From an uncultured Lachnospiraceae bacterium (GTDB taxonomy: Bacteria; Bacillota; Clostridia; Lachnospirales; Lachnospiraceae): a stretch of DNA of 46,300 nt. Both the position numbers and the translations under genes were made by a program. Location of the stretch: positions 1 through 46,300 of the forward strand of contig CAMNWW010000001.1 of the NCBI GenBank assembly GCA_946566415.1. Reading direction: 5' to 3'. Under the pieces are notes generated by a model that had not been told where the DNA came from, searched no databases, and worked only from the letters and a program-made list of their open reading frames with translations. Positions 2-46,300 of this stretch are shown piece by piece. Within the stretch, counting starts at the first letter, position 1. Every line of letters begins with the position of its first letter.

Positions 2-916
2 ACCAAGCCGTGACCGTTAGCCTCCTTCGTTGGTTTTACAGAAAATGAAGTTAAAGAGCTATGTATAACTTACAGCATGGACTATGAAGAAGTAAAACGT
101 CTGTACGACGGTTATTGCTTTGAAGGTACAATACATATCTACAGCCCGCGCTCTGTAGTAAGCGCTATGCTCACCCACAGTTATGATAATTTTTGGAATA
201 AAACGGAGACCTTTGAGGCGCTAAGAGATTATATTATTTTAAATTATAAAGGTCTGCGTGATACCGTCACAGAACTTCTCGCAGGAGCTTATAAAAGGAT
301 AAATACGGCAACCTTCACGAATGACATGACTACTTTTTCTTCGGCAGACGATGTCCTCACCTTGTTGATTCATCTGGGATATCTTGGATATGATTTCAAG
401 AAAAAGGAAGTATTTATACCGAATTCAGAGATTGCTTCGGAATTTTGTAATGCAGTAGAATCTGCCGGATGGGAAAATCTTACAGATTCAATTAAAAAAT
501 CTGAGGAACTTCTAACTGCAACAATTAACAGGGACACCGAGGCTGTCGCGGTTGGGCTTGAAGCAGCGCATATAGAAACCTCTATCCTGACATATAATGA
601 TGAGAATGCTCTCTCCTGTACTATTGCGCTTGCATATTACAGTGCCAGAGAGTACTATACTTCCTTCCGAGAACTTCCAGCCGGAAAAGGATTTGCTGAT
701 ATAGTATATATTCCGCGGAAGAATCATCCAGATAAACCTGCACTTGTCATAGAGTTAAAATGGAATGAATCTGCACAAGGCGCTATTGAGCAGATAAAAA
801 ACAGATGCTATGCCGAGTCATTGAAAGACTATCAAGGAAACCTGCTTCTTGTCGGTATAATTTATAATAAGAAAACAAAAAAGCACCAGTGTATTATTGA
901 GCAGTATCATAAGTAA
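2..916 (+). pseudogene. C-terminal part of AAA-ATPase-like / PD-(D/E)XK (PDDEXK_9-type) nuclease fusion, with an in-frame TGA at 11-13; gene begins upstream of the window
   Basis: ORF 77-916 has RELPAGKGFADIVYIP...VIELKWN (nuclease motif) and aligns with the paralog at 29682-31265. The same frame upstream reads TKP*PLASFVGFTENEVKELC, matching paralog TDPKNLSTYFGFTEQEVQEQC. Confidence 0.75.
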
Positions 917-9470: not shown

Positions 9471-9597
9471 TAAAGAAGATGTTATATAAATGCTGTACAA
9501 AAGGCTGTCCGATTGTATGGCATTTTTTCATTGTACAAATTCTTTGTTCATGATATTCTATAAACAGAATTATCAAAGAATGGCGGTGAAATAGTAT

Positions 9598-10065
9598 ATG
9601 CCACAAATGGGACAAGTTGATTTTTTGGAAACTTTACAGAGAATGTACAAAGATTCAAGAATTTTATTCAAAAATGGGGAATACTATAATTGTTGTTATT
9701 TGTGTGGATATATTTTAGAATGCGCATTAAAATATATTTTACAAAGATATGGGAAGAAGCAAGATGGGCAGTCATATTCTGTGAGTGATCTGAAAATATT
9801 GGCACATAATACGGCCAAATTGAATCAGGAGTTGGACGACTGGATCTCTATGACAGGAAGTGTCTCATCAGCATATCGGTTGGACTGCAGAGTAAAATGT
9901 CCATATATTTTTCTTGGGAAGGAAGGGCAGCCACATTGGAGTCCGGCTTATCGGTACGGGGATCATGCGAAATGGTTTGATAAAGAATACTGTGAGAAAT
10001 ATATGGAAGAAAGTAAGTATGTCTTTCAATTTGTAGCCAATATTGTTACCGGAGGTGTCATATGA
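9598..10065 (+). CDS. HEPN-like domain protein
   Basis: Helical; YLCGYILECALK, H-x-x-x-x-L (AHNTAKL) and W-x4-RY (WSPAYRY) match the HEPN family pattern; stop overlaps next ATG (ATGA). Confidence 0.65.
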   Translation: MPQMGQVDFLETLQRMYKDSRILFKNGEYYNCCYLCGYILECALKYILQRYGKKQDGQSYSVSDLKILAHNTAKLNQELDDWISMTGSVSSAYRLDCRVKCPYIFLGKEGQPHWSPAYRYGDHAKWFDKEYCEKYMEESKYVFQFVANIVTGGVI

Positions 10066-12755
10066 TACATAATAATGAGGTGCTAAGCAGGGCCATTGAA
10101 GCGGCGGCTGGATTTGTAGATCAATATGATAATGTGGAAGTTTATATCGTACAGAATGTATATGGGAAGATTATTGTGTATGTCGGTACGGATCAGGAAA
10201 ATCTTGTAGTTGAGTTGGAAAAGAAAATGAGGGAAGTAATTGAACTCTGGCTGACTACGTGTGAGCTATACGAAAATAATCTTTTTGCAAAGATGGAAAT
10301 TGACTTGTGGAAACAGGAAACAGATCCTATGCGAAAAGGTGTTTGGGTGTTTGAAAAGTATATTACGAATATGTACTGGGATGCGAAAAGAAAAAAGAAA
10401 GCAAGATGCGCATTGAAGAGTAAATTAGTAAGCTTTTACTCTTTTAAAGGCGGAGTTGGAAGGACGACGACGATGATGCTGTCCGCGGTCGGGGCGGCAA
10501 GGCGGGGAAAGAAAGTCGTTGTAGTGGATTTTGATTTAGAAGCGCCTGGGGTCTCCAGCCTTTTTCCGGAAGGGATATTGTCCCAGTATGGACTGCTGGA
10601 TTTTTTTGTGGAAAGTAATGTGTACCCGGGAAATATAAATATTGACGAATATTTGTATCCGGTGAGCGAGTACTGCCATGTAAACCAATACGGCGGGGAG
10701 ATATATATTTTACCTGCGGTAGGAATGGCGGCAAGGAATGATGCGGATTTGTATCGAAAAAACCTGATGCGGTTTGATATGGATGTTCCCGCATATGATG
10801 AAGAAAAAACACCTATTGACATACTATTGACGAAAATAGATTCATTTTTGACGCCAGACTACATTTTCATAGATACAAGATCCGGTATTCACCAGATCGG
10901 CGGAATTACATTAACAAGGTATTCAGACCTTGCATTAATGTTTTTTTATGGCAGTAGCCAAAACTTAGAAGGAATGAGAATGACACTTCCGGTTTTAAAG
11001 AGCAGTGATACGCCATTTTTATTAGTGAACAGCAAAGTTCCGGTTAATGAATCATTAGCCCAGATAGAAAAAAAAATATATATTGAAGGCGCGTATAATG
11101 CTTTAAGTATGTGTGACATAGAGTATCAGCATAATGAGATTCTTTTGGAAGATGAAACGGCAGAGCACTATCCGGTTCATATTACGTACAATGCAGGGTT
11201 AGAGGTTGTTGCATCAGTAGAGCAGCTCTTAAAAGGATATAAAGAGCAGGAAACAGAGTATAATGGAATTGTAAGCATAATTGAAGATACTCTGCAAAAT
11301 GACACTGCGGATGCTGCAACAGAAGAGGATAGTATTCAAACTCAGGAGATTGTAGAAGCATTTTCTAATATTATGGGAAAGCTGGAGACAGCTGCTGCTG
11401 AGGACGAATTTACAACGGAAATAGATCTGAGAAATAATTTTTATCCGTTAAAAGGTTATACCTTTATTTTTGATCAAAGAAAGTTTTTGGTTCTTGGACA
11501 GAAAGGAGTAGGGAAAACAGCTCTGTTCAGCGCTTTAAAGAATAATGAATATGCGAAAGCTTTGGCAAAGTATTTGAATGTGGGTACAGAACAATATGAG
11601 CATACAGAATGGATTGTTGGAACTTCGCAGGCATCAAATTATATTGATATTTTTAGCTGCCTGAACAGTGCGGAACAAATACGCGGCTTTTTGTATTATG
11701 AAACACTGAGAATTTTACTGGAAAACGATCCCGGCCTACAAAGCATTGTTTGCGGGAGTGATGCTGGGAGTATGTTTCGCGGGAAGTTTGATGTTGAAAA
11801 ATGCAGTCTTCTGTCAGGAGAAATGGCATACGAATTAAAAAAAATATTAGAAGAGGTAAATAAGGAATACGAAAAAAAGAACGTTGTGATTACCATCATA
11901 TACGACGCATTGGACCGAATTGTGGCGCCGGAAGACCGTAGGAAATTTGTCAGCGCGTTAATCGAGATGTGGTATATGAATGAGAGCACGATGCAAAATG
12001 TGCGGAGTAAAATTTTTCTGCGAAAGGATATTTATGATAGAGAGGTGAATGTGCCTGACAAGGTTAAATTGAAAAATTATTCTGTTACGCTTGCATGGGA
12101 TTATGATCAGTTATTTGCCATGATATGGAAACGTGCCATCAGCATTTCAAATCCTGTAAAAAAATTATACGAAAAAATAGTGTCGAAACAAATTAGTGAA
12201 GTATCCGGATTAGGGTATATTCCCGCAGTGAGCGCGGAAGAAAACAGGAGAATGCTGTCGGCGCTTATAGGTGTAAAAATGGGGAGCGGCAATAAGGCGT
12301 CGACATATAATTGGTTTAAAAACAGGCTGTCTGATACACAAGGAATAATTGTGCCAAGAAGTATGATTGACATTTTTGCTAAGGCGGCAGAGGAAGAGTC
12401 GCAAAGTGACGGGAAACAGCCAATTACAAAAAGTATAATACGTCCGCGATGTTTTGAGGATGTGCTTCCAGAGGTATCAGAAAAGAGAGTGATTGATTTG
12501 AAAGAGGAATTTCAAGAATACGCTCTATTTTTTGATAGTTTGAAGGATACAGTTCAAAGATCGCCAGTCGAGGAAAAAATACTTCAGGAAGCCTTGCGGC
12601 GGTGTGGATTTGAGAACCCACAGGAAGAAATATTTAATTTGGTTAATATCGGGATATTGAAACAATATCCACGAAAAATATCAGATCCGATACGTTACCA
12701 TTTCCCTGATATTTATTTGCGGGGGTTAGGCTTGCAAAGAGCAGGTATGCGGTAA
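10062..12755 (+). CDS. Dual NTPase: ParA/MinD-type (KGGVGR variant) domain fused to a second P-loop ATPase and a probable C-terminal winged helix
   Basis: SFYSFKGGVGRTT (aa ~129), VVDFDLEAPG, YIFIDTRSG; second Walker A GQKGVGKT (aa ~479), Walker B IIYDALDR, KIFLRKDI, PRSMID. Confidence 0.85.
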   Translation: MIHNNEVLSRAIEAAAGFVDQYDNVEVYIVQNVYGKIIVYVGTDQENLVVELEKKMREVIELWLTTCELYENNLFAKMEIDLWKQETDPMRKGVWVFEKYITNMYWDAKRKKKARCALKSKLVSFYSFKGGVGRTTTMMLSAVGAARRGKKVVVVDFDLEAPGVSSLFPEGILSQYGLLDFFVESNVYPGNINIDEYLYPVSEYCHVNQYGGEIYILPAVGMAARNDADLYRKNLMRFDMDVPAYDEEKTPIDILLTKIDSFLTPDYIFIDTRSGIHQIGGITLTRYSDLALMFFYGSSQNLEGMRMTLPVLKSSDTPFLLVNSKVPVNESLAQIEKKIYIEGAYNALSMCDIEYQHNEILLEDETAEHYPVHITYNAGLEVVASVEQLLKGYKEQETEYNGIVSIIEDTLQNDTADAATEEDSIQTQEIVEAFSNIMGKLETAAAEDEFTTEIDLRNNFYPLKGYTFIFDQRKFLVLGQKGVGKTALFSALKNNEYAKALAKYLNVGTEQYEHTEWIVGTSQASNYIDIFSCLNSAEQIRGFLYYETLRILLENDPGLQSIVCGSDAGSMFRGKFDVEKCSLLSGEMAYELKKILEEVNKEYEKKNVVITIIYDALDRIVAPEDRRKFVSALIEMWYMNESTMQNVRSKIFLRKDIYDREVNVPDKVKLKNYSVTLAWDYDQLFAMIWKRAISISNPVKKLYEKIVSKQISEVSGLGYIPAVSAEENRRMLSALIGVKMGSGNKASTYNWFKNRLSDTQGIIVPRSMIDIFAKAAEEESQSDGKQPITKSIIRPRCFEDVLPEVSEKRVIDLKEEFQEYALFFDSLKDTVQRSPVEEKILQEALRRCGFENPQEEIFNLVNIGILKQYPRKISDPIRYHFPDIYLRGLGLQRAGMR

Positions 12756-12768
12756 AACAGAGCAGAAC

Positions 12769-12826
12769 AAAAAAATCCCCTCCGGAAATCCATTGCTGTA
12801 AAGCATGAATCACGGAGGGGGTTCTT
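12769..12826. terminator. Bidirectional terminator between convergent genes
   Basis: AAAAAAATCCCCTCCG...CGGAGGGGGTTCTTT long hairpin. Confidence 0.7.
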
Positions 12827-22958: not shown

Positions 22959-24352
22959 TTATTCATGATAAATATCTTGGATACGAAGGAGCGTAACTTC
23001 TCCTTTTTTGGCCAGTTCTAGCAGAGACGGCTGAAAACCGCTTTTTGAAAAGATATAGTAATGGAATTTACATCCCTTTTTAAACACTGAAGCATATTGC
23101 CGGAGCAGTTCTAATTCATCTGCACCTATCGGTGTATTCTTATATTTACAAGAACCGATAATATACTCATTTCCATCCACTGGGGTGCCTACGATATCAA
23201 TCTGCACTTCTTTATGCGTCTTTGGATCTGTACCCCACCATTGTCCGGCGTCACGAAGCAGGATGGGCAGATCATTGGCGTAGCGAAGCAGATATACCCG
23301 GCACATTTTTTCAAAGATCAGTCCCATATAGTCTGAATAAAATTGTTTTACTGCACGATCATAAATCTGTTCCATGTGTCCTGAACTGATCGCGGACATA
23401 TTCTTGGGAATGAAACGGTACCAAAACCGGAAGAAATTGTCATCTATGGTATATATGGTTCTTTTTCCAGGTTTCTCGGCGATGGGCGTCTCTTTTTTCA
23501 AAATCCCCAACTCTAACAATACCCGGAGATATTTTGCACAGATTCCAGACTCTACCCCTACCTTCGTGGAAATCTCGTTGGAATGGCTGGCTCCTCCGGC
23601 GATAGCAGATATAACGGAATTATAGATTGCTGGCTCTCTTAATTCCTGTTTCAAGAGGTTTTCCGGCTCCTCAAACAGATAACTGGACATATTAAATAAA
23701 TGTTCCCTCAGTGCTTCGTCCAGATCCGTTTCTATCTCAAGCTTATTGATATAATGAGGGATTCCCCCAGTGACGCCGTACAACAAGGCCTGATCTTCAA
23801 AACTTAGTCCGGGATGGAATTCCGTCACCTCACGATACGTCAAGGCCTGCAGCTTAAACTGGGCCGTACGTCTCCCATACAATGGACTCTCATATCCCAA
23901 CACCTGATACTCCATAAAACTCATGGATGAACCACATAAAATCAAAAATAACTGTCCGTTCTGCCATACATGGTCGATGATATGCTGCAATCTGGAGGAT
24001 ATGGATTTTTCTGCTTTTGCGAGATAGGGATATTCATCAATGACAAAAACCAGCCTTTGCTCTTTTGATATTTCGGTGATCGCCGCCAGTGCATCTTCGT
24101 AGCTTTGATAGACCGGTGCGTGAAGCATGTCCGGATTCTTGTAGAAATAAACTGCTCTGGATAACGCTTCGAGATTTTCTTGTGAAGAGGCATTTAACGC
24201 CGAAAAGTAGATTGTAGGTTTCCCTTTGCAAAATTCATTGATAAAGCCGTTTTACCCACACGCCGTCTTCCATATATGATGATACATTCAAATTTCCCTT
24301 TATCATATCGCAGGTTTAAAGTATGCATTTCATTATCACGACAATGGAACAT
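22959..24352 (-). pseudogene. ATPase_2 (archaeal ATPase-type) / DUF234 nuclease-like fusion, frameshifted just after Walker A
   Basis: RBS AAGGAGG, ATG 24352, MFHCRDNE...IYGRRRVGKTAL; a 1-nt loss near 24242-24245 shifts to INEFCKGK...; downstream VFVIDEYPY, WWG...QIDIV...GSCKY. Confidence 0.85.
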
Positions 24353-24569: not shown

Positions 24570-24848
24570 ATGAACGAGATGAATCAAAAATTTTGTCAGT
24601 GCTGCGGTATGCCGATGGGAGATACCAGCGAATTGTATGGAACAAGTGCAGACGGAAGCAAAAACGAAGAGTATTGTAGGTATTGTTTTGAAAAGGGTGA
24701 ATTTACCTTTCATGGCACCATGGAGGAAATGATCGAGGTTTGTGTACCCAATATGGCGTCTGCGAATCCTAATATGAGTGAAGAAGAAGCAAGAAAAATT
24801 ATGCTGGAATGGTTTCCGACATTAAAAAGATGGAAAAATAGGGCGTGA
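24570..24848 (+). CDS. Putative zinc ribbon domain protein
   Basis: FCQCCGMPM...YCRYCF...PTLKRWK. Confidence 0.85.
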   Translation: MNEMNQKFCQCCGMPMGDTSELYGTSADGSKNEEYCRYCFEKGEFTFHGTMEEMIEVCVPNMASANPNMSEEEARKIMLEWFPTLKRWKNRA

Positions 24849-24917
24849 TGTGGTACGATAAACGCTGGAAAACATCAACGTTATTAAGAACACTCTGTAT
24901 TAAGGGAGCGCAGTTTC

Positions 24918-25694
24918 ATGAGGATAGGCGTTTATCAGTTTTCGAGCACAAACAAAATTGATGATAATTTTAAAGTTATCGAAAAAGCAATCAAATTAGC
25001 GGCGGAAAGGGGAGGAAGGCTGATTGTTTTTCATGAATGCGCCCTTTGCGGGTATCCTCCCCTTGAACAAAAAATTGAGAAAATTAATAGAGAAGAAATA
25101 GAGATTAATTTGTCAAAAATATCTGCTCGTGCCAAACAACATAAAATATTTGTTGCTGTCGGCACGGTTCGATTTGATGGAGAAAACAGATATAACTCGA
25201 TTGTTGTTTTTGATGATAATGGGGAGTTGGCGGGATACTATGATAAGACGGCTCTGTGGGGATGGGACACGGACAATTTTGTCAGAGGAACAAAGCCAGG
25301 GATTTTTGAGATTGACGATATGAAAATTGGATTTCGTATATGTTTTGATGTTCGGTTTCCGGAACTTTTTAGAGAGCTATATAAGCAAAATGTAGATATT
25401 TGTTTTGTAAGCTTTTCAGATACAAGTGAAACACCTCTGCCAGCTCGATATGATATTATTAAAGCGCACCTTATAACAAGGGCAGTAGAAAATGTCATGC
25501 CGGTGGTTTCGGTAAACAGTATATCCAATTTTCAAACCGCTCCGACGGCTGTTTTTGATTATAATGGAAAGACCGTTCAAGAGGCAGAAGTTAATGTTGA
25601 GAGCCTGTTGCTTTATGATTTTATCAAGCCGGAAATATCCTTTGGAATGAAAGGCAGGATTGCGAATAATAATCGTTTTCTGAAATTTTCTTAA
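24918..25694 (+). CDS. Carbon-nitrogen hydrolase (nitrilase superfamily)
   Basis: E-K-C triad: VFHECAL, YYDKTAL, RICFDVRFPE. Confidence 0.88.
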   Translation: MRIGVYQFSSTNKIDDNFKVIEKAIKLAAERGGRLIVFHECALCGYPPLEQKIEKINREEIEINLSKISARAKQHKIFVAVGTVRFDGENRYNSIVVFDDNGELAGYYDKTALWGWDTDNFVRGTKPGIFEIDDMKIGFRICFDVRFPELFRELYKQNVDICFVSFSDTSETPLPARYDIIKAHLITRAVENVMPVVSVNSISNFQTAPTAVFDYNGKTVQEAEVNVESLLLYDFIKPEISFGMKGRIANNNRFLKFS

Positions 25695-25754
25695 ACCGTC
25701 TCATTGCAAAGATAAACTTCTTAAGGTATGCTTTGTACAAGGAGGAGTTAGATC

Positions 25755-26231
25755 ATGGCAAACGAAGATAAAAAAGATTTTAATGCAATGCTTAATGACA
25801 GCAAGGATATGCCGAAGTTTCAGACGATTACGGATGAAAAGAGTATAAAAAAGTATGGCGGGGACAGGATGTATTTTGCACCGCCCATTGATTATGACAG
25901 GGTAATGCGTCTTGTACCTTTTGGAAAAGTGCTCACAGTAGGGGTTATACGGGATTATTTTGCAAAGCAAAGCGGCGCCGATTTTACAGAACCAATTACC
26001 GCAGGGATATTTGTTTCAATAGCCGCGTGGGCAAGTTACCAACGAAAAGATGATAAAACGCCTTATTGGAGAACGCTGAAGGCGAATGGGGAATTAAACC
26101 CCAAATATCCCGGCGGAGCCGAGGCTCAAAAGGAAATGCTCGAAAAGGAGGGACACACCATAATTCAAAAAGGCAGGACAAATATAAAGTATTATTGTAA
26201 GGATTATGAGCAGTCATTATTTTCGCTATAA
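25755..26231 (+). CDS. MGMT-family / alkyltransferase-like DNA-binding protein
   Basis: VPFGKVLT...TPYWRTLKANGEL...LEKEG; PYWR replaces the catalytic PCHR. Confidence 0.75.
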   Translation: MANEDKKDFNAMLNDSKDMPKFQTITDEKSIKKYGGDRMYFAPPIDYDRVMRLVPFGKVLTVGVIRDYFAKQSGADFTEPITAGIFVSIAAWASYQRKDDKTPYWRTLKANGELNPKYPGGAEAQKEMLEKEGHTIIQKGRTNIKYYCKDYEQSLFSL

Positions 26232-26283
26232 CGGCTGCAAGTTTGCCTGGCTGGGAAATATTGATATGGAGAGGTGTTGTGGT

Positions 26284-26631
26284 ATGGTTAAGAAGAATAG
26301 TATTTGTATAGCAGTGTCTGCAGCGCTTATGCTGCTTTTCCCTTGGTGTGCTGTGAATTTTATAAAAGGTGACGGCGGTATGGCGGCGTGCTTCCTGTTG
26401 TTTTTTGCAGTAAATCCTATGGCGGCGGTGGCTATGGGCGTGATTTCAGGAAGAAATGTTCGTTCATCATGGTTTCAGCCTATACTTTTAGCCGTCTTAT
26501 TTCTCCTTGGAGCTTGGGCTTTCTTTAATATGGGAGAAAAGGCGTTTCTTCTGTATGCGGCAGTTTATTTGTTCCTGGGATGTGCGGCTATGCTGGCAAC
26601 TTCATTTGTTGTCAGAAAACGGGTTGGATAA
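26284..26631 (+). CDS. Small four-helix membrane protein
   Basis: Hydrophobic ORF; ATG 26284 follows GGAGAGGTG. Confidence 0.7.
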   Translation: MVKKNSICIAVSAALMLLFPWCAVNFIKGDGGMAACFLLFFAVNPMAAVAMGVISGRNVRSSWFQPILLAVLFLLGAWAFFNMGEKAFLLYAAVYLFLGCAAMLATSFVVRKRVG

Positions 26632-26714
26632 CTTTAGACCGAATGACAGGGATGTCGGACTGCTGGAAGGACCGGTAAAAGGCAAGGCGGAAAATTGGTA
26701 TTGGAGGAGAGGCC

Positions 26715-27248
26715 ATGGAAATAAAGACATTTGAAATTTCATATTTACAAGAGGCGAAAGCGGTTTTAAAGAGCGCGTTTTTCTGTGAGAACAGTGATGA
26801 AACATACAATGAATGGGAATTTGCGGAAAACGTTTTGAGATCGGACGGGTATTTGCCGGAGTTATGTGTAATTGCTTTGGAGGGAAAAAATGTGATCGGC
26901 TACAATATTCTGACGAAGGCAGAGATAGGCGGCAGATCCGGTCTGGCGTTGGGACCGCTGGGAGTGCAGAAGGAGTATCAGAATACGGGGGTAGGCTTTG
27001 CACTGGTAAATGAATCTATCCGGAGGGCGGCGGAATCAGGATATCCGTGGATCGTTGTGCTGGGCGGTGGCTATTATTCCCGGTTCGGATTTGAAAGCGT
27101 CAGGGATTATGGGATTACAGTCTCGGATAATGCAATTTACAATGAGCATTTACAGATATTGTTCCTGGATGAAACGGTAAAGAATGGGACTTTTGGAAAA
27201 CTGGTTTACTGCGATGCGTTTTATGATGCAGACGGGAATTTATTGTAG
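26715..27248 (+). CDS. GNAT family N-acetyltransferase (YhbS-like)
   Basis: LALGPLGVQKEYQNTGVG, VVLGGGYYSRFGF. Confidence 0.88.
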   Translation: MEIKTFEISYLQEAKAVLKSAFFCENSDETYNEWEFAENVLRSDGYLPELCVIALEGKNVIGYNILTKAEIGGRSGLALGPLGVQKEYQNTGVGFALVNESIRRAAESGYPWIVVLGGGYYSRFGFESVRDYGITVSDNAIYNEHLQILFLDETVKNGTFGKLVYCDAFYDADGNLL

Positions 27249-27333
27249 TATGAGTTATCCTTGTGGGGTAATATATGACACGTTTTAGAAGTGTCATGAT
27301 GAAATTACAGAATTTTAGGAGGAAGCTATCCAT

Positions 27334-27753
27334 ATGATTGATTTACAAGATAAAAATAGTTGTCCGACAATAGAGGAAATAAGCGATTGTGTTAGAAATC
27401 CTATTTTTATGGATTTCTGTTCGGAAATCAAAAACACATATAAGTGTAATGAAAAAATAGAATATAGTTCATGCAGTTGGGAAAAAGGATGGAACATTAA
27501 ATTTAAAAAGTCTGGAAAAACCTTATGTACTATATATCCAAGAGACGGGTATTTTACAGTTATGGTTGTGGTTGGTACAAAAGAAAAAGTATTTGTTGAG
27601 ACAGCACTTCCAGAATGTACGGTTGAATTGCAAAATATATATAATCAAACGCAAGAGGGAAATGGTCAAAGGTGGCTGATGATTGATTTAGAGGATAAAG
27701 ATAGTTTATATGACGACCTGCTGCGTTTGATTCAAATCCGCAGAAATAGCTGA
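27334..27753 (+). CDS. DUF3788 family protein
   Basis: GWNIKFKKSGKTLCTIYP, GQRWLMIDL. Confidence 0.75.
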   Translation: MIDLQDKNSCPTIEEISDCVRNPIFMDFCSEIKNTYKCNEKIEYSSCSWEKGWNIKFKKSGKTLCTIYPRDGYFTVMVVVGTKEKVFVETALPECTVELQNIYNQTQEGNGQRWLMIDLEDKDSLYDDLLRLIQIRRNS

Positions 27754-27816
27754 ATTTCTGTCGGAAGGGATTTGACAATAATGTAAATTTGGCTTTCGGG
27801 GGAGGAGGAGTCATCT

Positions 27817-28398
27817 GTGCTGCCGACAAGAGAAGAAGCGGAACAACTTTTAAGAGAAGCGGAAAGGTGTAATCCAGGGCCGTGGGGGAATCACAGCCGT
27901 GTCACCGCCCAGTGTGCCGAGAGGATTGCCAAGGAATGCGGCGGCCTGGATTCAGACAAGGCATATATCCTGGGACTACTGCATGATATCGGAAGAAAAT
28001 TCGGGGTAAGGCATCTTGGGCATGTGTCGGACGGCTATTCTTATATGATGTCTTTGGGGTACGACGAGGCGGCGAAAATATGTCTGACCCACTCCTTTAA
28101 CAATCAGACTACGGACGTGTACATAGGAAAGTTTGACACTACTGGCGAAGAACTGAAAATGATTCGGGATGCCTTAAAAACAGTTGTTATGGATGATTAT
28201 GATAAACTGGTCCAGCTCTGTGATTCGATCGCGGGCGCAGACGGGGTGCTGGATATCGAGGAACGGATGGACGACGTAAGACGCCGGTATGGTTTTTATC
28301 CTCAGGAAAAGTGGGATAAGAATTTACAGCTTAAGAAATATTTTGAAAAAAAGACGGGTAAAGATATTTATAGCGTCGTAGGAAAAGGCGGACAGTGA
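27817..28398 (+). CDS. HD domain phosphohydrolase
   Basis: HS...GLLHDIGR...H...THS...CD. Confidence 0.85.
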   Translation: MLPTREEAEQLLREAERCNPGPWGNHSRVTAQCAERIAKECGGLDSDKAYILGLLHDIGRKFGVRHLGHVSDGYSYMMSLGYDEAAKICLTHSFNNQTTDVYIGKFDTTGEELKMIRDALKTVVMDDYDKLVQLCDSIAGADGVLDIEERMDDVRRRYGFYPQEKWDKNLQLKKYFEKKTGKDIYSVVGKGGQ

Positions 28399-28441
28399 CA
28401 ACCTATACTATTTTTATAGTAAGAAAGCGAGGATAGACGGT

Positions 28442-29080
28442 ATGAAAAGATTATTTAGTACGCCAAAGAGGGCGATTATTTTTGCGGTTTGTTCGGTGGC
28501 TGTTATTGCAGCTATTAGTGTAGCGGCGGTAAAAAGTACTCTGATCACCAAGGCAGAGGCGGAGAATGCCGCTCTGAGAGACGCGGGTTTGAACGAAGAA
28601 GAGGCATCGGCTTTGCGCACAAAGCTTGAATTTGATGACGGACGGTTTCAGTATGAAGTTGATTTCTACAGCAATGGGACAGAGTATGAATATTTAATTC
28701 AGGCTAAGGATGGAGAAATTATCGCGAGGGACATTGAGGGCGGAGCTAACAGTGATAATTATGGACAGAACCTGTCGCGGGATACAAGAAATCAGTCTGC
28801 CACAGACGGAAATAGTACCGCACAGCCGCAGGGAAAATCTCTTGATGAGGCAAAAGCGGACAGTGACGGCGCTTATATCGGAGTGGACCGTGCGAAGAGC
28901 ATTGCGTTAAACCATGCAAATTTGAACGAATCGGAAGTCCAGTTCGCGAAAGCAAAGCAGGAGAATGACGACGGCAGAGAGGAATATGAGATTGAATTCT
29001 ATTCTGGAAGAACAGAGTACGATTATACGATAGACGCAATTTCTGGAGATATTATTGAGTATGATGTGGATTATGATTGA
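28442..29080 (+). CDS. PepSY domain membrane-anchored protein
   Basis: N-terminal TM helix; two PepSY repeats (YEVDF...YEYLIQAKDGEII; YEIEF...YTIDAISGDII). Confidence 0.85.
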   Translation: MKRLFSTPKRAIIFAVCSVAVIAAISVAAVKSTLITKAEAENAALRDAGLNEEEASALRTKLEFDDGRFQYEVDFYSNGTEYEYLIQAKDGEIIARDIEGGANSDNYGQNLSRDTRNQSATDGNSTAQPQGKSLDEAKADSDGAYIGVDRAKSIALNHANLNESEVQFAKAKQENDDGREEYEIEFYSGRTEYDYTIDAISGDIIEYDVDYD

Positions 29081-29143
29081 AAAAGAGAGACGGTCACAGC
29101 CAGAAATGGATGCTGATAACATACACAAGAGAAAGAGATCAAA

Positions 29144-29614
29144 ATGAAATATGAAATTATACGGCTTATCGACAGACCGGAAATGAAGGAGCAGGCCGCC
29201 AAATGGTTTCATGAGAAATGGAACATTCCATTAGCGGCATACATAGAAAGTATGGAGGAATGTCTGGCTGAAAAAAGTCCTGTTCCCCAGTGGTATACCG
29301 CGATGGAGAACGGGAGGATCATAGGCGGATTAGGAGTCATCGAAAATGACTTTCATGACAGAAAGGACCTTACGCCGAATGTCTGTGCTGTTTATACGGA
29401 GGAAGACAAACGATGCCAGGGGGTGGCCGGCGCATTGCTGAATTATGTTTGCAAGGACATGAAAGAGAAAGGAATTGACACGCTATATCTTGTAACAGAC
29501 CATACGTCGTTTTATGAACGCTATGGCTGGGAATTTCTATGTATGGTACAAGGAGATGGGGAACCCGATATGACAAGAATGTATGTTCACAGGCGGGGAG
29601 ATTACAATCAATGA
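29144..29614 (+). CDS. GNAT family N-acetyltransferase
   Basis: AVYTEEDKRCQGVAG, LYLVTDHTSFYERYGW. Confidence 0.88.
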   Translation: MKYEIIRLIDRPEMKEQAAKWFHEKWNIPLAAYIESMEECLAEKSPVPQWYTAMENGRIIGGLGVIENDFHDRKDLTPNVCAVYTEEDKRCQGVAGALLNYVCKDMKEKGIDTLYLVTDHTSFYERYGWEFLCMVQGDGEPDMTRMYVHRRGDYNQ

Positions 29615-29681: not shown

Positions 29682-31265
29682 ATGGGGATTTATGTGAATC
29701 CGGGAAACCAATTGTTTAAGGAAGCGGTAGATTCATTGATTTATGTGGATAAGAGTAAGCTGATCGATTACACGAACAGCGTCCTGAAAACACAAAGGAA
29801 GAATATATGCGTCAGCCGCCCGCGGCGTTTTGGAAAATCTATGGCGGCGGATATGCTTGCGGCTTATTATAGTAAAGGCTGTGATTCAAAAGAACTTTTT
29901 GCCGGGCTCAAAGTATCACATCAGGCTCAAAAGGCGTATAAAACAAACCTGAACCAGCATAATGTAATCCGTTTTGATGTACAGAGATTTCTTTTTGACA
30001 AAGCGCATATAAATATTTTTATCAAAAGAATACAGGATGTTATTATCAAAGAACTGAAGGCGGAGTTTGGAGAATGTTTGGATATTGAGTACGGCCCGTA
30101 CGGTCTGCCGGGAGTTTTGGAACAGATTTATACACATACAGGCGAGGGTTTTGTTTTCATCATTGACGAGTGGGACAGTGTGTTCCGTTTAGCAAAGGAG
30201 GATACGGAGATACAAAAAAAGTACCTTGACTTTCTGCGCGGACTTTTTAAGGGATCGGAATATGTGGAGCTGGCTTATATGACTGGAATCCTCCCGGTCA
30301 AAAAGTATGGGGAACATTCAGCGCTCAATATTTTTGATGAATATTCTGTGACGGATCCAAAAAATCTTAGCACATATTTTGGGTTTACAGAACAGGAAGT
30401 ACAAGAGCAGTGTAAAAGATATAATGTGGATTTCGCAGAGATGGAGAAATGGTATGATGGATATCGTTTGGGAAACGTGGATATTTACAATCCCAAATCG
30501 GTTGTGGATGCATTGACATGGAAAAAGTTTAAGAGTTACTGGAGCGGTACAGAAACGTATGAAGCGTTGAAGGGTTATATAGAGAGGAATTTTGACGGAC
30601 TTAGAGAGGCGGTAGTCGAGATGCTGGGCGGAGGTCGGCGTAAAATCGATCCCACTACATTTCAAAATGATATGACTACGTTTCATACAAAGGATGATGT
30701 GCTGACCTTACTGATTCATCTTGGATATTTGACTTATGATGAACAGACGGGTGATGTCTGGATTCCGAATCGGGAAATTGCGCAGGAGTTTATACGGGCT
30801 GTAAAGGTTGGCGGCTGGGGAAAGCTTATGGAAGCGTTAAACCGTTCGGAAGAGATTCTGAAAAATACATGGGAAATGGATACAGATGCGGTGGCGGAGG
30901 GATTGGCAAAGGCGCGCAACGACACAGCATCGATTATTCAATATAATGACGAAAATTCATTGGCTTGTGCAGTCTATGTGGCATATTATAGCGCGCTGTC
31001 GTATTATGCAAAACCATTAAGAGAGCTTCCGAGCGGAAGAGGATTTGCTGATGTGGTCTATCTACCTTTGCGGAATGTAGACAGGCCCGCTCTGCTGATT
31101 GAGTTGAAGTGGAATAAATCAGCCGAAGGGGCGATTAAACAGATTAAAGATAAGAAATATGCAGATTGGCTCAGGAGTTATACAGGCGATATTCTCCTCG
31201 TAGCGATCAATTATGACAAGAAGAAAGATGTTCATGAGTGCATTATAGAAAAATGTACCATATGA
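29682..31265 (+). CDS. AAA-ATPase-like / PD-(D/E)XK (PDDEXK_9-type) nuclease fusion
   Basis: YVDKS, SRPRRFGKS, FIIDEWD, GRGFADVVYLP...LIELKWN. Confidence 0.9.
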   Translation: MGIYVNPGNQLFKEAVDSLIYVDKSKLIDYTNSVLKTQRKNICVSRPRRFGKSMAADMLAAYYSKGCDSKELFAGLKVSHQAQKAYKTNLNQHNVIRFDVQRFLFDKAHINIFIKRIQDVIIKELKAEFGECLDIEYGPYGLPGVLEQIYTHTGEGFVFIIDEWDSVFRLAKEDTEIQKKYLDFLRGLFKGSEYVELAYMTGILPVKKYGEHSALNIFDEYSVTDPKNLSTYFGFTEQEVQEQCKRYNVDFAEMEKWYDGYRLGNVDIYNPKSVVDALTWKKFKSYWSGTETYEALKGYIERNFDGLREAVVEMLGGGRRKIDPTTFQNDMTTFHTKDDVLTLLIHLGYLTYDEQTGDVWIPNREIAQEFIRAVKVGGWGKLMEALNRSEEILKNTWEMDTDAVAEGLAKARNDTASIIQYNDENSLACAVYVAYYSALSYYAKPLRELPSGRGFADVVYLPLRNVDRPALLIELKWNKSAEGAIKQIKDKKYADWLRSYTGDILLVAINYDKKKDVHECIIEKCTI

Positions 31266-45535: not shown

Positions 45536-46300
45536 TTAGTGAACCAGCGCATCGACCAGATTTCCCTTCTTTTCGCTGTCCGTATGAAAATATGTACGTA
45601 ATAAAACTTCGTAGTTATCTCCAAGAATTTCCGCAGCCTCTTTTACTTCTCCCATATTTTTCGTATTACGAATCAGGTTTGTCGCAAACGCATGTCTGAG
45701 TGAATGCAGATTGTACTCCGGAATCTCCGCACGCTTACAGATTTTCTTTAATGTGTTGCCCAGATTCTGAAGCATGGGCGGATGTCCATTCTGTGTTGTC
45801 AATATCAGATCATTGTTAAAATGGTTCTTGCCATACAAATCCAACATACAGGATAAGGCAAATTCAGCCTCACGGTTTAAAGGAACTGTTCTTAAACTAT
45901 TTGGATATTTCGGAGCTGTTAATACAAGTTTGGTTTTTGCAGTGTCCTTTTCATCCCTGTTTACGACACGGCTTAAGGTTCTTGTAATTTTAACTCCTTT
46001 TCGCCCCATATAAGTTACAATGCTGCTTCTTCCAAGTCCGATCATTTCTCCGCCGCGCAGTCCTGTATTTAAAAGAAATACAATAGCTGGTCCGTAACGG
46101 TACATAAATCTTTCATTTTTGTTCGGGCTATATTCCATTGCGATTTCTTTGACAAGTTGCTGATGTTCCGGCGGCATGATCTGAATCTCCTTTGTTTCAA
46201 CAGCCAAAACGGACTCATCCGGCATTTCAACCCGGTTCATAATATTATACTTTTTGGCATAGTGAAAAACAGGCGGAAATCCTATACCAAAATGTATGCA
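45536..46300 (-). CDS. Tyrosine recombinase/integrase, C-terminal catalytic domain (frame open to window edge)
   Basis: NTGLRGGE (R), PK..S.RTVPL (K), HSLRHAFAT (HxxR), LGD, RTYFH (Y). Confidence 0.9.
   Translation of the reverse strand, partial: CIHFGIGFPPVFHYAKKYNIMNRVEMPDESVLAVETKEIQIMPPEHQQLVKEIAMEYSPNKNERFMYRYGPAIVFLLNTGLRGGEMIGLGRSSIVTYMGRKGVKITRTLSRVVNRDEKDTAKTKLVLTAPKYPNSLRTVPLNREAEFALSCMLDLYGKNHFNNDLILTTQNGHPPMLQNLGNTLKKICKRAEIPEYNLHSLRHAFATNLIRNTKNMGEVKEAAEILGDNYEVLLRTYFHTDSEKKGNLVDALVH

What the first reader, a model, noticed from the sequence alone, without database searches (positions are those of the whole stretch)
9598..12755. Candidate uncharacterised defence system: HEPN-like protein coupled to a dual ParA/MinD + P-loop ATPase
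Seen: a visibly AT-richer two-gene cassette between two ordinary genes, with its own promoter-like sequence (TTGTAC-17-TATTCT) and ATGA stop/start overlap at 10062-10065. Gene 1 (155 aa) has a HEPN-type signature (YLCGYILECALK, AHNTAKL, WSPAYRYGDH). Gene 2 (897 aa) has an unassigned ~120-aa N-terminal domain, a ParA/MinD module, an acidic linker, a second ATPase (GQKGVGKT, IIYDALDR, KIFLRKD, PR) and a winged-helix-like tail. No parB, parS-like array or min genes are nearby. Established: HEPN domains are common RNase effectors of toxin-antitoxin and abortive infection systems, and P-loop ATPases often act as their sensors. Inference: a sensor-switch ATPase controlling a HEPN effector in anti-phage defence. 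I cannot match it to a named, experimentally characterised system.
Basis: partly seen in the sequence, partly recalled or inferred. Interest (0 to 1): 0.85.

Follow-up and report, generated by a model that had tools for sequence, protein, structure and literature searches.

The report
Fused HINPO (PDC-M28) defence candidate
An inserted two-gene cassette pairs a small HEPN-fold protein, a likely RNA-cutting toxin, with a three-part ATPase; it is a new copy of an already catalogued but untested candidate anti-phage system (HINPO, also PDC-M28), so it is real but not new.

Summary
Gene 1 is a HEPN protein (Pfam above cut-off; HEPN fold, Z 11-12). Gene 2 joins a variable N-terminal domain, a ParA/MinD ATPase with Arg in place of the P-loop Lys, and an ORC/CDC6-STAND-like AAA+ ATPase with a winged helix. 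The 3.3-kb AT-rich cassette is an insertion: 12 of 14 same-genus genomes show the empty site. The pair is co-conserved: 77 of 79 loci with both ATPases and upstream room have the HEPN gene.

It is not unnamed. The proteins match PADLOC candidate PDC-M28 (A, and B+C fused), and the architecture, fused form included, is the HINPO system of Li, Burroughs and Aravind (bioRxiv, October 2026). Both are computational; I found no experiment. The scan noted this family before in two other genomes.

Most likely mechanism (inferred): the nucleotidyltransferase-derived domain plus ParA holds the HEPN RNase inactive until the AAA+ sensor detects an invader, then translation stops. Additions here: invariant HEPN residues are E41, H70, R119, Y120, not H123; the N-terminal domain tracks HEPN; one relative has HEPN plus ParA without the AAA+ part. 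Verdict: new member of a known kind, interest 0.32.

The parts
9531..9559 (+). Promoter-like TTGTAC-17-TATTCT with TG before the -10 box; unverified
   Evidence: Sequence; 7 of 12 consensus matches, below the threshold
9598..10065 (+). HEPN protein, 155 aa (PA-HEPN1 of HINPO, PDC-M28A); HEPN-T/AbiV-type residues E41, K45, H70, R119, Y120; predicted RNase toxin
   Evidence: Pfam PF05168 29.5 bits, cut-off 22; PDC-M28A E 1.8e-10; model pLDDT 88.9; Z 11.9/11.7/11.4 to 3o10, 1ufb, 2hsb; E41, H70, R119, Y120 invariant in 65 rows
10062..12755 (+). 897-aa fused ATPase (HINPO iNTase-ParA-ORC/CDC6; PDC-M28B+C)
   Evidence: PDC-M28B residues 3-412, E 3e-52; PDC-M28C residues 591-852, E 5e-37; model pLDDT 86.5
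10062..10397 (+). N-terminal domain, residues about 1-112: fast-evolving helix-strand-strand-helix-strand-helix domain; called inactive Pol-beta nucleotidyltransferase by Li et al.; predicted HEPN-binding module
   Evidence: Secondary structure; least conserved folded domain, 43% vs 63-69% identity among close homologues; family-level likeness to HEPN-paired MNTs, indirect for this copy
10410..11306 (+). ParA/MinD-like SIMIBI ATPase, residues about 117-415, KGGVGRT (Walker A Lys to Arg), DxDLEAPG
   Evidence: NF047398 156 bits, cut-off 90; Z 22 to FleN, MinD, ParA; K129, R134, D156, D158, D271 in 63 of 63 rows
11307..11366 (+). Acidic, low-confidence linker, residues about 416-435
   Evidence: pLDDT under 50 at 414-422; poorly conserved
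11367..12755 (+). AAA+ ATPase of the Sll1717 / ORC-CDC6-STAND type with helical lid and C-terminal winged helix, residues about 436-897; predicted sensor
   Evidence: NF047389 111.5 bits, cut-off 75; Z 14.2 to SSO1545 (2fna, 326 aligned, rmsd 5.4), 13.2 to 2qen, 12.5 to Orc1/Cdc6 2qby; K485, D615, R654, W679 in 63 of 63 rows
12777..12820 (.). GC-rich hairpin (likely terminator) that belongs to the host site; in the empty allele it follows the DUF1934 gene directly
   Evidence: Sequence compared with L025 of the closest relative G002
9471..12772 (.). Approximate extent of the insertion (about 3.3 kb) between the DUF1934 gene and a convergent 169-aa membrane-protein gene; no integrase, transposase or terminal repeat
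   Evidence: Empty site in 12 of 14 same-genus genomes; repeats

Best explanation
This is a horizontally inserted two-gene HINPO / PDC-M28 cassette that likely works as an abortive anti-phage (or anti-plasmid) system with the HEPN protein as its predicted RNase effector. Shown: the operon, the folds, the conserved catalytic motifs, the insertion and the co-occurrence. Inferred: (1) the HEPN dimer cuts RNA through an AbiV/HEPN-T-type site (E41, H70, R119, Y120); (2) at rest it is held inactive by the N-terminal nucleotidyltransferase-derived domain together with the ParA module, a relic of the HEPN-MNT toxin-antitoxin pair; (3) the ORC/CDC6-like AAA+ winged-helix half senses the invader, most likely its DNA, and oligomerises with ATP; (4) this flips the ParA nucleotide switch and frees or activates HEPN, so translation stops and the infection aborts. 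An immune role of some kind I put at about 0.75, this order of events at about 0.5.
For: Family identity. HEPN is upstream in 46 of 47 fused and 31 of 32 split loci with room (near-duplicates included, one HEPN 5'-truncated). Reciprocally, 10 of 11 HEPN-profile hits in 400 phylum genomes are directly upstream of a KGGVGR ATPase (7 of them were in the profile), and the 11th is a plain HEPN-MNT pair. E41, H70, R119, Y120 stay invariant at 16% mean column identity, which is the alternative active site described for HEPN-T/AbiV; AbiV is reported to be an rRNA-degrading RNase (review passage). The N-terminal domain is present in 78 of 80 HEPN-linked ATPases and absent in 30 of 31 without HEPN, the exception having a HEPN on a second look. 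G516 has HEPN + N-domain-ParA with no AAA+ gene found; L139 and L145 carry other tails; L011 keeps the ATPase after 5' loss of HEPN. The HEPN profile aligns to an MNT-paired HEPN (probability 96), and one N-domain subtype aligns to the partner MNT family (probability 66, E 6e-5, score 32 against at most 18 in 25 shuffles). Clear defence genes lie within 4 kb in 7 of 28 distant loci, one cassette inside an Hma system; PDCs were defined by embedding in BREX, DISARM or type I RM. Patchy: no full-length orthologue in 60 relatives, a match in 5 of 300 family genomes.
Against: No experiment on this family was found. The HEPN lacks the canonical Rx4-6H motif, so RNase activity rests on analogy; AbiV itself is a weak match (NCBIfam E 0.004, below cut-off; Z 6.3). 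This copy and its close clade are not in defence islands: 0 of 10 close loci have a clear defence neighbour within 4 kb, and 21 of 28 distant loci lack a clear one; I ran no random-locus control. The window's own N-domain subtype does not align detectably to MNT (probability 0.3) or to the MNT-like subtype (0.2), only to the split-form subtype (97), and Pfam gives sub-threshold BolA, not MNT, in 7 of 14 N-domains. N-domain presence is largely confounded with presence of the AAA+ part. Li et al. propose ParA multimers as primary effector and HEPN as backup. What the sensor binds is untested.
Confidence: 0.5

Rival explanations
1. Immune system in which the ORC/CDC6 module finds invader DNA and nucleates ParA multimers that coat it; HEPN is only a backup and the N-domain senses nucleotides (model of Li et al.).
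For: Published proposal. Both ATPases keep their motifs; the tail matches DNA-binding Orc1/Cdc6; three loci keep the ATPase(s) with HEPN truncated or replaced (L011, L144, L101).
Against: HEPN is kept in 77 of 79 loci with invariant residues, which is more than a dispensable backup would suggest; G516 keeps HEPN + ParA without the ORC/CDC6 part.
Confidence: 0.2
2. A selfish toxin-antitoxin (addiction or stress) module that spreads by recombination and has no specific anti-phage role.
For: Solo insertions at 10 or more different sites among 14 close loci, 0 of 10 with defence neighbours; derivation from HEPN-MNT pairs; a HEPN + ParA/Soj dyad was proposed as a TA system in 2013.
Against: A 900-aa two-ATPase antitoxin is costly for addiction alone; relatives sit in or beside RM and Hma systems and on IMG/VR viral contigs.
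Confidence: 0.15
3. Conflict system in which HEPN is not a nuclease but an RNA- or nucleotide-binding adaptor or regulator of the ATPases.
For: No Rx4-6H motif; best structural matches include sacsin HEPN and the Roquin ROQ domain.
Against: Invariant E, H, R, Y across very divergent members fit a catalytic site of the HEPN-T/AbiV type.
Confidence: 0.12
4. Housekeeping ParA/MinD role in partition or division-site choice.
For: The 117-415 domain has the ParA/MinD fold.
Against: Found in about 2% of phylum genomes, absent from the site in 14 of 14 same-genus genomes, no ParB/MinC/MinE in the window, far below the cut-offs of ParA and MinD equivalogs, always coupled to HEPN.
Confidence: 0.02

Closest known systems
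[quoted passage not shown]
   Same: Gene order, upstream HEPN, fast-evolving N-domain on ParA, Walker A Arg and PG motif, ORC/CDC6-STAND partner; the paper states that ParA is fused to it in several cases.
   Different: Reported as enriched in multicellular bacteria; this copy belongs to a clade whose named relatives are gut Lachnospiraceae (no 'Lachnospir' in the main text; supplements closed). The paper makes ParA the primary effector; I favour HEPN. Computational only.
PADLOC candidate PDC-M28 (Payne et al., bioRxiv 10.1101/2024.01.29.577857)
   Same: Gene 1 matches PDC-M28A; gene 2 matches PDC-M28B and PDC-M28C in order; three-gene relatives score much higher on the same models.
   Different: B and C are fused here and scores are modest; the copy is solo, not embedded in BREX/DISARM/RM. 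PDCs are untested. I could not see PADLOC's rule file, so whether it would call the fused form is unknown.
HEPN-MNT toxin-antitoxin pairs (HEPN-T clade, PF05168)
   Same: HEPN subtype with E..LK, alternative His and RY; HEPN gene directly upstream of a partner that begins with an MNT-like domain.
   Different: The partner domain has no conserved catalytic aspartates and is fused to two ATPases.
HEPN (MAE_18760 family) + ParA/Soj dyad, Anantharaman et al. 2013, PMC3710099
   Same: Same idea: HEPN toxin with a ParA/Soj-like ATPase as antitoxin, by conformational change or phosphorylation.
   Different: That HEPN family keeps Rx4-6H; this one does not, and no second ATPase was described.
AbiV (Lactococcus HEPN abortive-infection RNase)
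   Same: HEPN with the alternative conserved His; validated anti-phage RNase.
   Different: AbiV is a type III TA with an RNA antitoxin and no ATPase; match is below cut-off.

Membership tests
HINPO | Upstream gene for a HEPN domain (PA-HEPN1) | tested here: met
   Pfam above cut-off and HEPN fold; the paper's own PA-HEPN1 alignment is in closed supplements
HINPO | ParA of clade ConB2: Arg for the Walker A Lys, PG motif after the DxD sensor, Ser before the first Lys region | tested here: met
   S127-F-K129-GGVG-R134, D156-x-D158-LEA-P162-G163
HINPO | Rapidly evolving N-terminal domain on ParA | tested here: met
   Residues 1-112, least conserved folded domain
HINPO | That domain has the Pol-beta nucleotidyltransferase fold and is catalytically dead | tested here: inconclusive
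   No conserved acidic pair. One subtype aligns to HEPN-paired MNTs (probability 66), the window's subtype does not directly (0.3); an earlier MNT set gave nothing; the domain was not folded and searched alone
HINPO | Downstream or fused ORC-CDC6/STAND AAA+ NTPase | tested here: met
   NF047389 above cut-off; Z 12.5-14.2 to SSO1545, PAB2304, Orc1/Cdc6 over residues 428-891
PDC-M28 | Matches to models A, B and C in order on one strand | tested here: met
PDC-M28 | PADLOC system rule (number of separate genes, score and coverage limits) | not testable with these tools
   Only the HMMs are available; B and C are one ORF here
Anti-phage defence system | Protection against phage or plasmid in vivo | not testable with these tools
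   No experiment found
Classical HEPN RNase | Rx4-6H motif | tested here: not met
   R119 invariant, no conserved His 4-6 residues later; H123 varies
HEPN-T / AbiV-type HEPN | Conserved acidic residue in helix 2, alternative His between helices 2 and 3, basic residue of the motif kept | tested here: met
   E41, H70, R119 invariant; description; Foldseek ranks 1o3u, 2hsb, 1wol, 1ufb first though with E above 0.001
HEPN-MNT toxin-antitoxin | Active MNT partner with GS and DxD motifs | tested here: not met
   No such motif conserved in 42 N-domains
ParABS / MinCDE | Linked parB or minC/minE and canonical KGGxGK[ST] | tested here: not met
   parS not searched

The most novel reading that the evidence does not exclude
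HINPO is a rewired HEPN-MNT toxin-antitoxin pair: the minimal unit is HEPN + dead-MNT-ParA (seen alone in G516), the dead MNT serves as the docking site, the Arg-P-loop ParA has taken over control of the toxin, possibly by phosphorylating the invariant Tyr of the RY motif in place of MNT adenylylation, and the ORC/CDC6 winged-helix half is a swappable sensor. That would be a new way to gate an RNase toxin and would contradict the published ParA-polymer model.
Probability: 0.15. Interest if true: 0.7.

Novelty: new member of a known kind. Interest (0 to 1): 0.32.

Why it matters
HINPO / PDC-M28 is widespread (Bacillota, cyanobacteria, proteobacteria, plasmids, viral contigs) and, as far as my searches reach, untested. 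This compact, intact two-gene copy is a convenient one to clone, and the analysis gives concrete mutants (H70, R119, Y120, K129, R134, K485, D615) that separate the HEPN-effector model from the ParA-polymer model. The fused form is common and may be missed by a three-gene rule. As a discovery it adds little: the system has been named twice.

Tried and rejected
Complex prediction of residues 1-418 with two HEPN copies gave no verdict (scores 0.31, 0.09, 0.15, mark 0.32); it says nothing either way. ESM Atlas gave no usable hit for two N-domains. N-domain profile against PDB sequences: nothing under E 0.09. BolA: sub-threshold Pfam hits in 7 of 14 N-domains; no BolA in 151 phylum genomes to build a comparison, no BolA-annotated plasmid hit; I prefer the MNT reading because the shared motif also occurs in HEPN-paired MNTs, but BolA-likeness is not excluded. 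A first MNT set of 16 rows did not align to the N-domain. No match in the INPHARED phage collection; HEPN scan of viral contigs gave only two short weak matches. No RNA holder listed. The idea that a short ORF after L012 is a BREX pglZ remnant (recalled likeness) found no support in NCBIfam or PADLOC. DefensePredictor DS-41 gave only a weak P-loop match (E 0.002) and the passages seen do not describe it. Literature searches with no relevant hit: PDC-M28, Sll1717 (22), KGGVGR (23), HEPN+MinD+anti-phage (75). The careful tree did not finish; the quick tree was used. PADLOC hits to ABC transporters, SbcC-like, UvrA, generic methyltransferases and a cyclase were not counted as defence neighbours.
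Full report
Observation. The two ORFs, their ATGA overlap and all quoted motifs are as described. The genes are AT-rich (GC 0.365 and 0.392, window 0.461). The upstream gene is DUF1934, preceded by phosphofructokinase; the downstream convergent gene is a 169-aa membrane protein without a significant family. In 12 of 14 same-genus genomes that have the DUF1934 gene, the membrane gene follows it directly; the other two hold unrelated genes there, and none shows either cassette gene in the 1.5 kb fetched. In the closest relative the DUF1934 stop is followed at once by the hairpin that here lies at 12777-12820, so about 3.3 kb was inserted, without integrase, transposase or terminal repeat. Contigs from runs of other studies bridge both junctions and the overlap (4 of 21 listed runs laid). 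The promoter is present as written but not better than chance.

Gene 1. Pfam HEPN above cut-off, PADLOC PDC-M28A. The model (pLDDT 88.9) matches HEPN domains best: Z 11.9 sacsin (123 aligned, rmsd 2.8), 11.7 TT1696, 11.4 AF0298; these values are within the range that helical bundles can reach, but Foldseek also ranks four HEPN proteins first (E 0.016-0.1) and the profile agrees. Across 65 members at 16% mean identity only E41, H70, R119 and Y120 are invariant. There is no Rx4-6H; H123 varies. This is the pattern that Anantharaman et al. 2013 describe for HEPN-T and AbiV as an alternative active site (passages). AbiV is reported as an rRNA-degrading RNase (review PMC13064643, passages). RNase activity here is an inference.

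Gene 2. NCBIfam places a KGGVGR-variant ATPase at 121-309 and a Sll1717-family ATPase at 443-880, both above cut-off; PADLOC gives PDC-M28B then PDC-M28C. The model (pLDDT 86.5) matches ParA/MinD/FleN at 117-415 (Z 22) and archaeal AAA+ winged-helix proteins and Orc1/Cdc6 at 428-891 (Z 12.5-14.2). In 63 family rows the Walker A Arg (R134), K129, D156, D158, D271, and in the second ATPase K485, D615, R654, are fully conserved. The N-terminal 112 residues form a small alpha/beta domain that evolves fastest. One subtype aligns to the MNTs that partner ordinary HEPN toxins, with the catalytic aspartates gone (probability 66, E 6e-5; shuffles and four other domains far lower); the window's subtype aligns to the split-form subtype (97) but not directly to MNT (0.3). 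Pfam gives weak BolA hits for 7 of 14. The assignment of this copy is therefore indirect.

Family. I examined 131 loci from genomes, metagenomes, viral contigs and plasmids; 130 passed the ParA filter: 51 fused, 36 split into two ATPase genes, 43 other. With at least 450 nt upstream, HEPN precedes 46 of 47 fused and 27 of 32 split loci; a six-frame check of 23 loci recovered 4 more split ones, giving 77 of 79. These counts include near-duplicates and 11 close relatives, one with a 5'-truncated HEPN. The misses are L144 (IscB-like gene upstream) and L101. Many instead follow an MqsA-like gene and end in TPRs, a separate class also described by Li et al.. In 400 phylum genomes the KGGVGR family occurs in 9, and 10 of 11 HEPN-profile hits are its upstream neighbours, 7 by construction; the 11th is a plain HEPN-MNT pair. 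G516 has HEPN + N-domain-ParA ending at a stop right after the ParA domain, with no AAA+ gene beside it or found elsewhere at E 1e-25. On a quick ParA-domain tree of 69 rows (close duplicates left out) the 29 split forms lie on one side of a branch with support 98, among fused lineages; with only a midpoint root, one fission is suggested, not shown.

Context. Among 28 distant loci, 7 have clear defence genes within 4 kb (type I, II and IIG RM, PDC-S37, PDC-S67, and one cassette between HmaA and HmaB), 5 are ambiguous and 16 have none. Two of four plasmid regions read lie beside restriction genes. The close clade is different: 0 of 10 loci have a clear defence neighbour, and 14 copies (73-77% identity, one 62%) occupy at least 10 different sites. 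No random-locus control was run, so enrichment is not quantified.

What is known. PDC-M28 is one of 145 untested candidates of Payne et al. 2024 (passages; the name itself is not in the main text of any paper searched; supplements closed). Li, Burroughs and Aravind (bioRxiv 10.64898/2026.10.19.760177; abstract, sections 12, 24, 41 and passages including the whole HINPO section; supplements closed) define HINPO as HEPN, inactive Pol-beta nucleotidyltransferase fused to a ConB2 ParA with Walker A Arg, and an ORC-CDC6/STAND ATPase, fused to ParA in several cases. Every feature I could test is met except the N-domain fold, which is inconclusive. A search for HINPO finds no other relevant paper. 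Two earlier notes of this scan reached the same family in other genomes.

Mechanism. I commit to HEPN as the main effector, restrained by the N-domain-ParA module and released when the AAA+ winged-helix sensor engages an invader (0.5). The reasons are the near-obligate HEPN with invariant residues, the N-domain that tracks HEPN, the dyad without AAA+, the swapped tails, and the likeness to HEPN-MNT pairs. Against it stand the missing canonical motif, the solo context, the indirect N-domain assignment and the absence of any experiment. The published ParA-polymer model (0.2), plain addiction (0.15), non-catalytic HEPN (0.12) and housekeeping (0.02) are the rivals. That HEPN domains act as dimers, that MNTs adenylylate a Tyr of some HEPN toxins and that bacterial tyrosine kinases are MinD/ParA relatives is partly my own knowledge; the last fits the Wzc/CapB matches at Z 12-15, well below ParA/MinD.

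Verdict. Real, intact, horizontally acquired, probably immune; a new member of a named but untested kind. Interest 0.32.

Noticed in passing
L221:5528-7242 (-) (G516): HEPN + N-domain-ParA dyad ending right after the ParA domain, with no ORC/CDC6 gene beside it: a possible minimal form, or a truncation.
   Followed up: partly
L139:7067-9713, L145:5092-7944, L057:7256-9966: HEPN + N-domain-ParA fused to a different or divergent C-terminal region; in L139 and L145 the tail has no NCBIfam or PADLOC match.
   Followed up: partly
L011:7780-10700: Close relative in which the HEPN gene has lost its 5' half while the 899-aa ATPase is intact.
   Followed up: partly
L144:3322-4737: An IscB-like RNA-guided nuclease gene (NCBIfam 319 bits, cut-off 175) sits where the HEPN gene would be.
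   Followed up: no
L080:3574-18008: Three-gene form embedded between HmaA and HmaB of an Hma system.
   Followed up: partly
L113, L127, L128, L135, L153, L159 and others: KGGVGR ATPase-TPR proteins of about 610 aa without the N-domain, downstream of MqsA-like Zn-ribbon-HTH genes: the TA-ParA class of Li et al.
   Followed up: partly
L162-L165: KGGVGR proteins of 740-780 aa between an HTH gene (212-240 aa) and a 480-500-aa gene with no Pfam or PADLOC match in the one tested (L163).
   Followed up: no
window 22959-24128 (-): ATPase_2 + DUF234 protein matching PADLOC PDC-S27 (E 2e-39), apparently lacking its N-terminal part relative to the model; next to an AT-rich run of small GNAT, HD and hydrolase genes (24570-29614).
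   Followed up: no
window 77-916 and 29682-31265: Two AAA-ATPase-like / PD-(D/E)XK (PDDEXK_9) genes, the first cut by the window start.
   Followed up: no
window 45536-46240 (-): Tyrosine integrase family gene at the contig end.
   Followed up: no
L004 and L005: Near-identical loci in MAGs labelled Blautia sp. and Muribaculaceae; one label is probably wrong or the bin is mixed.
   Followed up: no
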